From the human T2T-CHM13v2.0 reference genome, Homo sapiens: DNA of 64,000 bases. Every line of letters begins with the position of its first letter. The first letter of the stretch is position 1. The notes beneath the pieces were generated by a model. The model had not been told where the DNA came from. It saw only the letters and a list, made by a program, of their open reading frames with translations, and ran no database searches. The position numbers and the translations under genes were made by a program. Below, in pieces: positions 4,168-26,645 of the stretch. The DNA lies in assembly GCF_009914755.1 (NCBI RefSeq), contig NC_060937.1; one strand, 5' to 3'.

Positions 4168-4222
4168 ATGAAAAACAAAGTGAAGTCTGTGATTGTACCT
4201 ACTTGGAGGTGAACCAAAATAA
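4168..4222 (+). pseudogene. WDR95P: WD pseudogene exon A: (D)EKQSEVCDCTYLEVNQN(K)
   Basis: Acceptor tatctttctag, donor gtgagt at 4223; open 55 nt, ends phase 2. Confidence 0.8.
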
Positions 4223-4273
4223 GTGAGTTATATTCAGCTTGGATATAAGAGGGGTTGTATTTAGGAGGGAACC

Positions 4274-4574
4274 TTTTTCTGTCTTTTCCTTTTGAGACAG
4301 AGTCTCGCTCTGTTGCCCAGGCTGGAGTGCAGTGGCACCATCTCAGCTCACTGCAACCTCTGCCTCCCGGATGCAAGCTATTCTCCTGCCTTAGCCTCCT
4401 GAATTACTGGGATTACAGGCATGCACCACCATGCCTGGCTAATTTTGCATTTTTAGTAGAGATAGGGTTTCACCAAGTTGGGCAGGCTGGTCTTGAACTC
4501 CTGACATCAAGTGATCCACCCGCCTTGGCCTCCCAAAGTGTTGGGATTACTGGCGTGAGCCACCGTGCCCGGCC
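4274..4574 (-). mobile_element. Alu (AluS-like)
   Basis: gagacagagtctcgctctgttgcccaggctgg...gtgagccaccgtgcccggcc. Confidence 0.95.
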
Positions 4575-5241
4575 AATGTAAAGTTTTTTCTGGAGGAAGG
4601 CACCCAGACAGTGAAGGGTATTTTCCAGAAGAAAATGTGTTGAGGCATTCCCGAGGACCCCAGTTGCTCCCCAGTGGTAATTTAGGCAACTAGTCTCTTC
4701 CAGAACATTGGAAGCAATTCTCCGCACATTTTGACAATTGTTTAGAAATAGAGAAAGCAAGCACTGTTATCCCCCAGCCAAATGCATTGTTAAGAAAGAA
4801 ATCAGAGACTGGCGTAATTAAATTCTGCTGCCATAAATCAAAGAATAAAAATCTACCAAATTCCCTTCTGGACACTCAGAAAGTAAAAGCAATTCTTGGC
4901 CAAGCTCTGTTCATAGTTCAACCTTACCTCCATGGATCCATGCTCCTAGGACCAGGCAAGCCTCAGAAAGGCAGCTGCTGATGGAGCAGCATCTGTCGAC
5001 TCAGAAATTACAGGGCATCCTATTCTTGTCTCCTGATCCCTTAAACACCAGTTAAAAAACTGATTGTAATTTATCAAATCACATTTTACCGTGCTCTTCA
5101 TAAACAAAAGAGATTGTGTTCTTGTTCTCTTCATTAATCAGATGGATATGGCAAAATTAAACCACAGTCTTAATTCCCCCACAAACATTAAACAGATGAA
5201 AAGCTTAAATATCAAAATATAAAGTTCTGTTACTGTTCTAG

Positions 5242-5287
5242 GTGTATCATAGTTGTTGGGTGAGACAGAAGAATAGTTGTGTATTTT
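5242..5287 (+). pseudogene. WDR95P: WD pseudogene exon B: (K)CIIVVG*DRRIVVYF
   Basis: Acceptor ctgttctag; starts phase 2 matching exon A; TGA at 5261-5263 in the GWD position; followed by ataagt (dead gtaagt donor). Confidence 0.8.
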
Positions 5288-5533
5288 ATAAGTGAAACAT
5301 ATAAAACGATGATATTTCAAAACCCTCCATCAGATTTATCTCCTTCTTTCCCACTCTCTGTTCTTTTTCTTTTAACCATCTTTCTCACTCTGTTAATTCT
5401 TTTTCTTCTAAACAGAGATTTTGGAGAAATCCTTTACACCTTTGTTTTCTGGTACAAGTCAGGTTGTGATATAGACAGAAGAGTTTCCTCCCTCCCTGCC
5501 TGCCTTCCTTATTTCCTTTAAAAACCTTTATAC

Positions 5534-5802
5534 GGCCCAGCATGGTGGCTCACACTTGTAATCCCAGCACTTCAGAAGTCTAAGGCGGGCGGATCTCAAG
5601 GTCAGGAGTTTGAGACCAGCCTGGCCACCATGGCAAAACCCTGTCTCCACTAAAAATTCAAAAATTAGCCAGGCGTGCTGGCGGGCACCTGTAATTCCAA
5701 CTACTCGGCAGGCTGAGGCAGGAGAATTGCTTGAACCCGGGAGGTGAAGGTTGCAGTGAGCCAAGATCATGCCATTTCACTCCAGCCTCGGCAACAAGAG
5801 TC
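5534..5802 (+). mobile_element. Alu (AluS-like) lacking 3' end and poly-A tail
   Basis: ggcccagcatggtggctcacacttgtaatccc...gcaacaagagtc then taaaacctttttac. Confidence 0.9.
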
Positions 5803-23459: not shown

Positions 23460-23530
23460 AATCCCTATGACATTTGCAAAATGATAAAACCCCCTAACAA
23501 TGCATTTCTCAGAATGGAGATGCATGACTG
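23460..23530. mobile_element. Tigger3-like DNA transposon terminus
   Basis: cctaacaatgcatttctcagaa...gatgcatgactg followed by TA. Confidence 0.55.
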
Positions 23531-25419
23531 TATATCTTTTAAGTCAAGGAACCATTAAAAAATGATGCATACATCCCGTAAACATTTTATTTCAATTTGC
23601 AACGTTAAGATGTACATTCATTTGCCAATCTTTTGATGTAGAGCCAAGGCTGTTTCTTCAACTGAGAGATGAGTTCAGCATGGTCTTCCATAATGCATTA
23701 TATATGATTTTCAATTTCCACTTTGTAAAAGTAGAGTAAGAATTTAATGATATTTGCAAAGCAATATGAGTGCAATATCTTTGCAGATTTTTATAATTTC
23801 TCCGACACTTTAACAGTGGTTTCACATATCCTCAATTCAGTATCACCCTTCAGCTAGTCTTTTCAAAGTCTTCACCTTAACTTTCACAAAGTTTTTTTTA
23901 TGAATTTCATGAATTTTCATTTTATTTAAATAAATTTATCAGCACAATGAAATGCATGACGGGCACAAACAGGTTTGAGAACAAACCTTGTTCTAAGCAC
24001 ACAACTCAATCCCTCACCTGCTGGAGCAGAAGTATACCGGCCACTTTCACCACCTTCCAGGCATTAGTGTTCAGAGGGCTGTGGGCATTTGGCAGGGTGT
24101 TGACAGAGAGCCAGCTAATCCATCAACTCACCTAAGACAGTGTCTGCTGCAGCGATCCTTTGAGCAATGGATTCCCTAGAAATAAAATCAACACTTTCCC
24201 TGGGCAGCTTGGCTGCGGGACCAAGGACAGAGAGAGAGAACCCAGGAGGGAGGAAGGTGATGGCCCTGTGGTCAGCCCACTCATGTTAGTTCTACAAGAT
24301 ACCTCACGTACATTGTCTTAGTGTGGCCCAATTTCTCAAATAGCACACACCTTATTCAATATCAACAACATGTTGATGATCTTCCACCCAGGGATATCTC
24401 ACCCATTTAGGTAGGAAATCACTAAATTCCATTGTTAGTTCTCACAACGTCCCTGGAGATGTTCTATTTGTTATCTCCACTTTACAGATGAAGAAACTGA
24501 GGCTTAGGGAGGACTTGTAATTTGCCAAACTTAAAACACCAATATGTGGCAAGGCAGGAATAGGATCCCACTTCTCTTTCTGCCACCCCACCGTGATAAG
24601 GCCTTGGAGAAGGGCTATTATAGGAGCATACAACGGAAGGGGTGTTGCTTACAAATGCTCCGAACACTTTGAAGATATGGACAATCGGCACATTGCTGTG
24701 GAATCAAGCATGTCCTTGCAAACTGCAAGCCAAATGATGGTGCTGGTGTTAACGAACAGACTCGCAGAGGCTGGGTCAGCTTACACAGAAAGAAGAAGAG
24801 AGATGGCCGGAGTGAGGTGCTTCCCAGGCTGTGCAGGATGAAGTGAGGCATGGAGAGGCGACTGGAAATCATCTCCAGAGAGGTGGGGCCAGGATGACCC
24901 AAGGGGATGTGTGTGGAGAAAAGTGGGTGCAGCCACCTCGAGTGCTCAAAGAGAAGGAGGGACGGATTGAGCAGAGATTGTAGGTCAGGCGAGAGGAACC
25001 AGAGAACAGGCAGAAAACAGTGCCACAGAGACCAAATATGCTCCAGGAAAGGCTGGTTGATACCTGGTACCCTCGGTAGATCAAGAGCATTCAGATCTGG
25101 TCTCAAGGTTTTTGTTGAAAATTCTTCATGAATATTTTCAAGGAAAGGTTGTTCAACATTTCCCTGTGCGATATTTGGCGGCCACCACTCAGTGCCAGGC
25201 GCTGTGCAGTGATACAACCACGGATGGAAAGGAGTCTGTGTCCTGAAGGAGCTCACACATCCCTGGCTGTCCCCTGACACGATCGGAATGCAAAGCATGG
25301 TGGGGGTGCTCACTTGGGAGGTCAGCAGGGTGCCTTCCCAGAGGGAGAGAACTTATGCTGAGACCTGAAAGATGAGTAGGATGTGGCCATCTGAAAGGAA
25401 GCCTTAAGAGAAGGAAGAG

Positions 25420-25748
25420 CTGCTACCATGCGGATGAACCTTGAGGACCTTATGCTAATGAAATGAGCCAGTCACAGAAAGACAAATACTGATTCCACTC
25501 GCAGGAGGCACCTGGTGTATTCCAATTCATAGAGACAGAAAGTAGAATGGTGGTTGCCAGGGGCTGGGGAGAAGGAAATGGAGAATTGTTGTTTCATGGG
25601 TGTAGAGTTTCAGTTTTGCAAGATGAAAAGCACTCTGGAGATGGATGGTGGTGGTGGTTGCACAACAATGTGAATGTACTTAATGCTGTGGAATTGTGCA
25701 CTTAAAAGTGGTTAAGATGGTAAATTTATGTTATGTGTGTTTCACCAC
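25420..25748 (+). mobile_element. L1MB-type 3' end, interrupted by an Alu
   Basis: ggatgaaccttgaggaccttatgctaatgaaatgagccagtcacagaaagacaaatact...cacttaaaagtggttaagatggtaaattt. Confidence 0.85.
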
Positions 25749-26045
25749 TTTTTTTTTTTTTTTTGAGACAGAGTCTTGCACTATCACCTGGGCTGGAGCA
25801 CAGTATTGTGATCTTGGCTCACTGCAACTTCCACCTCCTGGGTTCAAGCAATTCTCCTGCCTCAGCCTTCTGAGTAGCTGGAATTATAGGCACCTGCCAC
25901 CATGCCCAGCTAATTTTTTGTATTTTTAGTAGGGACAGGGTTTCACCATGTTGGCCAGGCTGGTCTCGAACTCCTGACCTTGTGATTTGCCCGCCTTGGC
26001 CTCCCAAAGTGCTGGGATTACAGGCATGAACCACCACACCCAGCC
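25749..26045 (-). mobile_element. Alu (AluS-like)
   Basis: Poly-T, gagacagagtcttgc...ccaccacacccagcc. Confidence 0.95.
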
Positions 26046-26436
26046 ATTTTTCCACAATCAAAGAGAGACAGAGAAGAGCCTGAGGCAAGGCCACTAGGCA
26101 AGAGAGAGGGGATGTTCTGGATCTGGAAATTTCTAGTAGTTCAATGTGGTTGGCACAGAGCTGGGGGTGGCAGCGGCAAGGACAAGATGATGAAGGGAAA
26201 GGGTTTGAGGAGTGGAAGCAGATGGCTTTCCGAGGGGTTTAGACACATCCAGGAGGTAGGAAAGAGTGGGCAACATAGGATCAAGTAGAAGGGATTGACG
26301 GAAATATGTTTTTGCTGATGGAAAATGTGCAATGACCATGCTCTACCTGGGGTCTTTGCTTTAAGCAGGGGAAGCAGGGGGCCCTCAGGTGCCCAAGGAA
26401 TCTGCACCCTGTACTTACCTGGTTATTTCCCACCAG

Positions 26437-26645
26437 GCTGCTGCTGGGGCAGAGCAAGCCCTCCTGGAGAGCACCTGTGCCAGGGGTGGCCCAGCATTTA
26501 CCAGACCTTCCAGGGCCACGAGGTCGCCTGCGTGTCAGGTCTCAGGGAGAAGCCAGATTTGTCTGTTACTGGCTCAGACTTGTTTAATTTAAATTTTCTT
26601 ACACAGGAAGAAGAAGGAAGTGAAGCTGCCCAGAAGGAGTCCTGA
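26437..26645 (+). pseudogene. Probable terminal exon of the WD pseudogene (...GWPSIYQTFQGHEVACVSGLREKPDLSVTGSDLFNLNFLTQEEEGSEAAQKES*)
   Basis: Acceptor ttatttcccaccag, open protein-like frame to TGA at 26643-26645; phase link to exon I not established. Confidence 0.45.

What the first reader, a model, noticed from the sequence alone, without database searches (positions are those of the whole stretch)
4168..26645. Hidden fossil gene: a spliced WD40-repeat pseudogene invisible in the ORF track
Seen: eight short plus-strand segments with splice signals or their remnants join in two phase-compatible blocks. Exons A-D read DEKQSEVCDCTYLEVNQNKCIIVVG*DRRIVVYFDMPHDFRHFWKPQPCWQDDLNHRHKEDNLCVLSSYNGEIII*KVISGH. 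Exons E-I read GSLTFWRLF...GFVHVYDIQEY...NVTF*RAHVSMVTSLELIEEKFLLSSSLDCTVCLW...GTFGQSSPWDIFTPAS*. Known: these are WD40 blade motifs of the WDR49/WDR64/EFCAB8-like group, and I recall mouse Wdr95 lying tail-to-tail with Hsph1. Inference: this is an intron-containing unitary pseudogene (WDR95P), a gene lost in this lineage.
Basis: partly seen in the sequence, partly recalled or inferred. Interest (0 to 1): 0.8.

Follow-up and report, generated by a model that had tools for sequence, protein, structure and literature searches.

The report
WDR95P: dead sperm-tail WD40 gene
This stretch of human chromosome 13 holds the broken, intron-containing remains of WDR95, a testis-type WD40-repeat gene still intact in many other mammals; it is already catalogued as the pseudogene WDR95P, so the finding is correct but ordinary.

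Summary
All quoted peptide segments lie on the + strand where stated.

Five intact orthologues (hamsters, tree shrew, reindeer, tortoise) each gave 10-19 tblastn matches. All are on the + strand and collinear. The same proteins reversed gave none.

In the window I count 12 exon remnants (4168-26645). They carry five in-frame stops, a 27-nt deletion, two or three frameshifts and four broken splice sites. The exon(s) for the best WD40 blade cannot be found.

The rest of the human genome holds only 25-43% identical paralogue exons, so the pseudogene is unitary.

Interpretation supported: this is WDR95P, already in RefSeq and named in print. Two additions:
- The fossil runs about 117.6 kb (window -90964 to 26645), roughly three times the RefSeq span (-17652 to 20755).

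A paper reports that mouse Wdr95 is testis-enriched and that knockout males are fertile (PMC13253961). Novelty: already known. Interest is low.

The parts
4168..4222 (+). Exon remnant A (DEKQSEVCDCTYLEVNQNK). Acceptor ctag and donor gtgagt are intact, with no lesion inside.
   Evidence: 73-77% identity to orthologues
5242..5287 (+). Exon remnant B. It has an in-frame TGA at 5261-5263 where orthologues have W. The donor reads AT (ataagt) instead of GT.
6794..6853 (+). Exon remnant C (DMPHDFRHFWKPQPCWQDDL). Acceptor acag and donor gtgagc are intact.
10065..10199 (+). Exon remnant D. The acceptor reads TG (tctg) instead of AG. A 27-nt in-frame deletion after about 10097 removes 9 residues. There is a TGA at 10128-10130 where orthologues have W. 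The 3' end is approximate.
15352..15447 (+). It has a TGA at 15361-15363 where orthologues have R. No acceptor AG is recognisable and the donor is gtgagc. Its phase does not fit exon E by one base. The start is uncertain.
   Evidence: it is the top hit of 7 of 7 orthologue segments within the 6.6-kb intron, E 8e-5 to 0.058. Also.
16806..16864 (+). Exon remnant E (GSLTFWRLF...NFVP). Both splice sites are intact.
17128..17269 (+). Exon remnant F, the best preserved in the window (47 codons, no lesion). Splice sites are intact. It ends with one base of a split codon.
   Evidence: (72-83% identity to mammalian proteins)
18892..18931 (+). Exon remnant G. It has a TGA at 18903-18905 where orthologues have W. 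The donor reads AT (atgagt) instead of GT.
19543..19628 (+). Exon remnant H, the only window exon with a direct, sub-threshold WD40 hit. It has a weak donor (gtccct). A 27-bp tandem duplication at 19616-19668 lies over the exon-intron junction.
   Evidence: (PF00400, E 0.0058, 17.6 bits against a cut-off of 27)
20651..20837 (+). Exon remnant I. It has a TAG at 20698-20700 where orthologues have W, and a frameshifting indel at about 20760-20768. The donor gttggt lies at 20838. The RefSeq span ends inside this exon, at 20755.
22813..22907 (+). Exon remnant J, outside the RefSeq span. The acceptor ccag is intact and the donor reads GA instead of GT.
   Evidence: (tree shrew, 61% identity, E 5e-5)
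26437..26645 (+). Last coding exon remnant K, outside the RefSeq span. It has a +1 frameshift in a G run at about 26483-26486. The terminal TGA at 26643-26645 falls where the tree shrew and reindeer proteins end.
   Evidence: (E 8e-20)

Best explanation
The segments are the 3' half of a unitary pseudogene, WDR95P. It is the decayed human copy of WDR95, an old vertebrate gene of the FAP337/CFAP337 family, with an N-terminal EF-hand region and WD40 beta-propellers. The gene kept its place and its introns but can no longer make the protein.

In the window alone, five exons carry stop codons and four of those replace the tryptophan of a WD blade. Two or three frameshifts and a 27-nt deletion break the frame. 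Four splice sites are mutated, and the exon(s) for one whole blade are gone.

What is shown: the exon map, the lesions, orthology, the absence of another copy found, and excess change at conserved sites.

What is inferred: the ancestral protein was an axonemal (sperm-tail or cilium) component, and its loss was tolerated because it is dispensable or backed up by paralogues.
For: - **Collinear match.** In 162 kb, 10-19 HSPs per orthologue were all on the + strand and all in order, against 0 for reversed queries (alignments).
- **Orthology.** Exon F's best hits are mammalian proteins of this group at 72-83% identity (7 of 10 candidates at E<=1). The profile search gave 322 hits at E<=1e-20, and one of the 120 listed is named 'WD40 repeat domain 95'.
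- **Whole-genome search.** Searching the human genome with hamster P0006 gave 17 matches. Ten lie at C13:30237164-30344663 on the + strand at 50-73% identity. Seven lie elsewhere at 25-43%.
- **Lesions.** They were read directly from sequence against orthologues.
- **Missing blade.** Between -1865 and 4167 the best hit had E 0.39, no better than hits on the wrong strand. In the hamster and tree-shrew proteins this segment holds the best-scoring WD40 stretch (P0006 527-558).
- **Relaxed constraint.** The human reading differs at 36 of 186 columns that are invariant in 7 orthologues. In leave-one-out controls, each of 6 placental orthologues differs at 2-15 of 188-201.
- **Synteny.** The C13orf26/TEX26-like part of the hamster chimera P0005 maps to C13:30174577-30190961 on the + strand, just upstream. 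HSPH1 lies tail-to-tail downstream (hub annotation).
- **Function in other species.** Mouse Wdr95 is testis-enriched, knockout males are fertile with normal sperm morphology, and the gene is 'not found in human genomes' (PMC13253961, passages). Chlamydomonas FAP337 is tabulated with zebrafish WDR95 and human WDR49 and EFCAB8 as homologues (PMC6761771, one passage). The nearest solved chain is WDR64 in entry 9fqr.
Against: - The window exons do not themselves reach Pfam's WD40 cut-off. Only 1 of 5 scanned gives any hit, at 17.6 bits against 27, so the WD40 nature rests on orthology.
- Exon boundaries and ancestral splice states are inferred from human sequence and protein alignments only. No orthologous genomic DNA was available.
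- D' and J are weak matches.
- The whole-genome search ran with a stricter first look and may miss some matches.
- RNA-level activity is not excluded. WDR95P is listed among up-regulated transcripts in infected brain organoids (PMC9330524, one passage).
Confidence: 0.96

Rival explanations
1. The locus is a transcribed pseudogene kept for an RNA-level role, for example as host of a long non-coding RNA or of intronic piRNA precursors, as the mouse gene's introns are said to be.
For: [quoted passage not shown] PMC9330524 (passage) lists WDR95P among up-regulated transcripts in infected organoids.
Against: No RNA data could be examined here. Rfam found no family in window 1-40000 at gathering score. 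Transcription of a pseudogene does not show function. This reading adds to the pseudogene reading rather than replacing it.
Confidence: 0.1
2. It is a duplicated or processed pseudogene derived from a living paralogue (WDR49/CFAP337, WDR64 or EFCAB8) rather than a gene lost in place.
For: Database names for the orthologues are often 'WDR49-like', 'WDR64-like' or 'CFAP337-like'.
Against: - Exon remnants are spread over 117.6 kb with introns and splice-site remnants, so it is not processed.
- Identity to the WDR95 group is 50-83%, against 25-43% for the other human loci.
- The upstream neighbour is shared with the hamster gene.
Confidence: 0.02
3. It is still a coding gene that makes a shorter or alternatively spliced WD40 protein.
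For: Several exons (A, C, E, F, and upstream -73480..-73250) are free of lesions. Short 'uncharacterized protein' models exist in two orangutans and a titi monkey around the upstream exon.
Against: - Stops lie in 5 of 12 window exons, with frameshifts in I and K and one blade missing. A propeller cannot close without its blades (established knowledge of WD40 folds).
- The primate models have no Pfam domain, and parts of them match many other places on both strands of the region. I take those parts, from recall, to be Alu-derived.
- 36 of 186 invariant columns are changed.
Confidence: 0.02

Closest known systems
WDR95P (RefSeq/HGNC pseudogene, human 13q12.3)
   Same: Same locus, strand and identity. 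The RefSeq span -17652..20755 lies inside the fossil mapped here.
   Different: The exon remnants I mapped run from window -90964 to 26645 (about 117.6 kb), against 38.4 kb in RefSeq. Remnants upstream of -17652 and the last two coding exons (22813-22907, 26437-26645) lie outside the annotated span. RefSeq's span corresponds to about residues 367-845 of the 986-residue hamster protein.
Rodent Wdr95 and its mammalian orthologues (P0006 Cricetulus, P0001 Peromyscus, P0016 Tupaia, P0004 Rangifer)
   Same: Same exon order, with 63-70% identity over 468 shared columns. The stop position matches that of the tree shrew and reindeer proteins.
   Different: The human copy has stops, frameshifts, broken splice sites and a missing blade. 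The orthologues carry six WD40 stretches above Pfam's cut-off.
FAP337/CFAP337 family (Chlamydomonas FAP337; human WDR49, WDR64, EFCAB8; Drosophila WDY)
   Same: Same architecture in full-length orthologues. EF-hand (PF13499) plus WD40 domains are precomputed for many reptile, amphibian and fish hits. WDR64 in PDB entry 9fqr is the nearest solved chain (E 9e-41). PMC6761771 tabulates zebrafish WDR95 with human WDR49 and EFCAB8 as FAP337 homologues.
   Different: These are living paralogues at 25-43% identity to the hamster WDR95 protein where they match in the human genome. Assigning those loci to named genes is from recalled map positions and was not tested.

Membership tests
WDR95 orthologue (unitary pseudogene WDR95P) | Collinear exon-by-exon match to WDR95 orthologues on one strand | tested here: met
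   10-19 HSPs per orthologue, all on the + strand and collinear, with 0 for reversed queries.
WDR95 orthologue (unitary pseudogene WDR95P) | Closer to the WDR95 group than to paralogues | tested here: met
   chr13 exons match at 50-73% identity, other human loci at 25-43%; best hits are at 72-83%. No tree was built.
WDR95 orthologue (unitary pseudogene WDR95P) | Conserved neighbours (TEX26-like upstream on the same strand; HSPH1 downstream, tail-to-tail) | tested here: inconclusive
The upstream side is supported by the hamster chimera P0005, which maps to C13:30174577-30190961 on the + strand. The HSPH1 side is known only for human (hub annotation).
WDR95 orthologue (unitary pseudogene WDR95P) | Disabling lesions in the reading frame | tested here: met
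   Five stops, a 27-nt deletion, frameshifts in I and K, a phase break between D' and E, four non-canonical splice sites and a missing blade.
WDR95 orthologue (unitary pseudogene WDR95P) | No intact copy elsewhere in the genome (unitary) | tested here: met
   nothing outside chr13 exceeds 43% identity. Caveat: both searches used a stricter first look, so counts are a floor.
WD40 repeat (Pfam PF00400) | Match at or above the gathering score | tested here: not met
   of 5 window exon readings scanned, only exon H matched, at 17.6 bits against a cut-off of 27. Orthologues P0006 and P0016 score 108 and 125 bits with 6 stretches each. Single exons are shorter than one repeat, so the test has little power.
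Processed (retrotransposed) pseudogene | No introns, contiguous cDNA copy | tested here: not met
   Exon remnants are separated by 0.26 to 5.2 kb within the window and by up to 39 kb upstream. Ten of 12 acceptors are AG and 8 of 11 donors are GT.
FAP337/CFAP337 axonemal protein family | Physical presence in the axoneme | not testable with these tools
   Only indirect evidence: the paralogue WDR64 is a chain of PDB entry 9fqr, there is the FAP337 homologue table in PMC6761771, and mouse Wdr95 is testis-enriched (PMC13253961).

The most novel reading that the evidence does not exclude
The relic is three times larger than annotated. It is the remains of a full EF-hand plus WD40 gene of the FAP337/CFAP337 family that dates back to sharks. 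Its coding loss may be shared by apes and New World monkeys, and perhaps all primates. The locus may survive as a transcribed non-coding unit, for example a host of testis piRNA precursors as reported for the mouse gene's introns.
Probability: 0.12. Interest if true: 0.3.

Novelty: already known. Interest (0 to 1): 0.1.

Why it matters
It matters little beyond bookkeeping.

The finding shows that a tool-less reading can recover a spliced pseudogene correctly, down to its first exon base and its terminal stop.

Three practical points come out of it:
- The RefSeq span of WDR95P covers only about a third of the fossil. Variants labelled 'intergenic, WDR95P-HSPH1', as in PMC7890067, may lie inside unannotated exon remnants. 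None was mapped here.
- The statement in PMC13253961 that Wdr95 is 'not found in human genomes' is better put as 'present as a decayed unitary pseudogene'.
- Fertile knockout mice fit a gene that could be lost without cost.

Tried and rejected
- **Pfam on single window exons.** Four of 5 gave nothing and 1 was sub-threshold. The first attempt failed on a wrong stop-codon setting.
- **The missing blade.** I searched between -1865 and 4167 with four orthologue segments at permissive settings. The result was noise on both strands, best E 0.39.
- **Other features in the region.** Rfam on window 1-40000 gave 0 families. Pfam on five long stop-free frames (10131-10904 +, 24621-25352 -, 15150-15725 -, 27345-27776 +, 9689-10105 -) gave 0 families.
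- **Dating the loss.** This was not possible because no primate or other mammalian genomic DNA is held. Protein databases gave only indirect hints. There is no primate among the 120 listed of 322 hits and none among the 7 proteins listed, out of 10 candidates, for exon F. Three primate models around an upstream exon carry no Pfam domain, and parts of them match many other places on both strands of the region; I take those parts, from recall, to be Alu-derived.
- **Rejected readings.** Chance similarity, a paralogue-derived or processed copy, and a still-coding gene (see rivals).
- **Not run.** Structure prediction, complex prediction, the atlas search and the representative search, because the answer did not depend on them.
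Full report
**1. The observation**

The four misses were strings that cross an exon join, a stop or a split codon. Their halves were found.

Flanking sequence shows polypyrimidine-AG acceptors and GT donors, or one-base variants of them, at the ends of the similarity. It also contains three of its four E-I strings, including the N of 'NVTF', which arises from a split codon A|AT between exons F and G. The fourth string is contiguous in the genome but starts with the g of the acceptor.

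**2. What it matches**

Exon F (window 17128-17268) was searched against the protein database with longer proteins allowed. It found 7 proteins at E<=1 among 10 candidates. Six are named mammalian proteins at 72-83% identity, from Peromyscus, Sigmodon, Rangifer, Cricetulus and Dama. The seventh is an unnamed 94-residue ENA entry at 76%. Their given names are 'WDR49-like', 'CFAP337-like' or 'C13orf26-like'.

A profile of four of these found 322 proteins at E<=1e-20, and the best 120 are listed. They cover rodents, ruminants, carnivores, shrews and moles, tree shrew, armadillo, marsupials, monotremes, reptiles, amphibians, bony fishes and sharks. One (P0032) is named 'WD40 repeat domain 95'. Many non-mammalian hits also carry an EF-hand domain (PF13499, precomputed).

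The hamster (P0006) and tree-shrew (P0016) proteins score 108 and 125 bits on Pfam WD40, with six stretches each.

**3. Collinearity and controls**

I fetched 98 kb upstream of the window from the same assembly. I then ran tblastn with five orthologues on the joined 162 kb.

| Query | HSPs at E<1e-3 | Strand and order | Reversed query |
|---|---|---|---|
| Cricetulus P0006 | 19 | all +, collinear | 0 |
| Tupaia P0016 | 17 | all +, collinear | 0 |
| Rangifer P0004 | 10 | all +, collinear | 0 |
| Mesocricetus P0024 | 19 | all +, collinear | 0 |
| Chelonoidis P0060 | 12 | all +, collinear | 0 |

The matches run from window -90964 to 26663. I count 24 exon remnants, 12 upstream of the window and 12 inside it.

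RefSeq's WDR95P span (-17652..20755) begins exactly at one HSP boundary ('KNLLLTGG...') and ends inside exon I. It corresponds to about residues 367-845 of the 986-residue hamster protein.

The last two coding exons, J (22813-22907) and K (26437-26645), lie beyond it. K matches tree shrew at E 8e-20 and 70% identity.

**4. The lesions in the window**

- **Stops.** There are five:
  - TGA 5261-5263 in B.
  - TGA 10128-10130 in D.
  - TGA 15361-15363 in D'.
  - TGA 18903-18905 in G.
  - TAG 20698-20700 in I.
  - Four of them replace a tryptophan that is present in the orthologues aligned. The stop in D' replaces an arginine.
- **Indels.**
  - A 27-nt deletion in D removes nine residues.
  - An indel at about 20760-20768 shifts exon I into another frame. 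In that frame it continues to match orthologues as far as a GT donor at 20838.
  - One extra base in a G run at about 26483-26486 splits exon K between two frames, each matching its half of the orthologues.
  - D' ends in phase 0 while E needs one base.
- **Splice sites.**
  - The donors after B and G read AT.
  - The donor after J reads GA.
  - The acceptor before D reads TG.
  - No acceptor is recognisable for D'.
  - A 27-bp tandem duplication (19616-19668) lies over the H donor.
- **Missing blade.** The 61 or so residues between the exon at -1975..-1865 and exon A include the best-scoring WD40 stretch of the hamster and tree-shrew proteins. They give nothing better than E 0.39 in the 6.1 kb where they should lie, no better than wrong-strand hits. 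In the whole genome that segment matches only paralogue loci, at 32-43%.
- **Upstream exons.** These carry further stops and two frameshifts.

**5. Decay beyond the obvious lesions**

Eight sequences share 468 alignment columns. Over these the human reading is 63-70% identical to six placental orthologues. Those orthologues are 64-86% identical to each other.

The human reading differs at 36 of 186 columns that are invariant in all seven orthologues. In leave-one-out controls each placental orthologue differs at 2-15 of 188-201 such columns. The opossum outgroup differs at 43 of 229.

The design is rough, because the controls use six references and the human test uses seven. The excess is still three-fold or more.

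**6. Unitary, not duplicated**

Searching the whole human assembly with the hamster protein gave 17 matches. Ten lie on chr13 between 30,237,164 and 30,344,663, on the + strand, at 50-73% identity. Seven lie elsewhere at 25-43%.

From recalled map positions I take the chr3 (about 170.3 Mb) and chr20 (about 34.6 Mb) loci to be WDR49 and EFCAB8. This was not tested. The search ran with a stricter first look, so weak matches may be missing.

**7. Neighbours**

A hamster gene model (P0005) fuses a 'C13orf26-like' N-terminus to this gene. That part maps to chr13:30,174,577-30,190,961 on the + strand. This is 36 kb upstream of the first fossil exon and on the same strand.

HSPH1 lies downstream on the opposite strand, with its 3' end at 40018 (hub annotation), so the two genes are tail-to-tail in human.

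For mouse I saw only that Wdr95 is tabulated at chr5, 149.53 Mb (PMC8891926, one passage).

**8. What the gene did, and why it could go**

PMC13253961 (passages) reports four things:
- Mouse Wdr95 is among genes enriched in male reproductive organs.
- A 25,302-bp deletion leaves males with normal testis histology, sperm morphology and litter size.
- Part of the gene was spared to avoid intronic piRNA clusters.
- Wdr95 is 'not found in human genomes'.

PMC6761771 (one passage, a table) lists zebrafish WDR95, human WDR49 and EFCAB8, and Drosophila WD40 Y as homologues of Chlamydomonas FAP337. The nearest solved chain to the hamster protein is WDR64 in entry 9fqr (E 9e-41).

From these I infer an axonemal or sperm-tail role for the ancestral protein, and a loss tolerated through dispensability or paralogue back-up. 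Neither point is shown for the human lineage.

**9. When it was lost**

No genomic DNA of other species was available.

Indirect hints come from the protein databases. No primate protein appears among the 120 listed hits of the profile search. None appears among the 7 proteins listed, out of 10 candidates, for exon F.

A well-preserved upstream exon (window -73480..-73250) does find primate models in Pongo abelii, Pongo pygmaeus and Plecturocebus cupreus. They are 223-619 residues long and have no Pfam domain. Parts of them match many other places on both strands of the region, and I take those parts, from recall, to be Alu-derived. The titi-monkey model also reads other frames of neighbouring exons.

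This fits a loss older than the ape and New World monkey split, but it rests on annotation and is weak.

**10. Known or new**

WDR95P is a RefSeq gene. It is named in PMC7890067 (as the gene label of two credible-variant sets) and in PMC9330524 (a transcript list). A full-text search for 'WDR95P' found 3 papers and one for 'Wdr95' found 23. I read passages of five of them.

The finding is therefore already known. The only additions are the larger extent of the fossil, the lesion map and the missing blade.

**Verdict:** observation confirmed, interpretation supported, low interest.

Noticed in passing
window -90964..-17653 (L003, L005-L011, L002) and 20756..26645: Exon remnants of the same gene lie outside the RefSeq WDR95P span on both sides. 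About 9 lie upstream, including an EF-hand-region exon and a lesion-free 73-codon exon at -73468..-73250. Exons J and K lie downstream.
   Followed up: yes
Hamster, Fukomys, mustelid, raccoon dog and non-mammalian models are full-length (about 980-1140 aa). This is either a real split of the transcription unit or an annotation habit. It may explain why the human pseudogene span is short.
   Followed up: partly
proteins P0126, P0127 (Pongo), P0129 (Plecturocebus); human counterpart window -74666..-69513: Primate 'uncharacterized protein' models are built around one preserved exon. Parts of them match many other places on both strands of the region, which I take, from recall, to be Alu-derived. 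They look like prediction artefacts on the same pseudogene.
   Followed up: partly
window 19616-19668: A 27-bp tandem duplication (2 copies, 85% matches) sits exactly over the 3' end and donor of exon H.
   Followed up: no
window 10131-10907 (+) and 24618-25352 (-): Two unusually long stop-free frames of 258 and 244 codons. The first continues from exon D into its intron. Neither has a Pfam hit, and they look like chance.
   Followed up: partly
window 20756-40017: PMC7890067 labels a credible-variant set as 'intergenic, WDR95P-HSPH1'. The fossil's last two exons lie in that stretch, so such variants may fall inside the pseudogene. No variant was mapped here.
   Followed up: no
window 28716-28858; 15156-15315: A (TTCC)n microsatellite of about 35 copies, and an imperfect GAGAG/TGTGA-rich tandem array just upstream of exon D'.
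   Followed up: no
protein P0005 (Cricetulus); human C13:30174577-30190961: A hamster model fuses the upstream neighbour (C13orf26/TEX26-like) to Wdr95. It is probably a read-through or a prediction artefact, but it is useful as evidence of gene order.
   Followed up: partly
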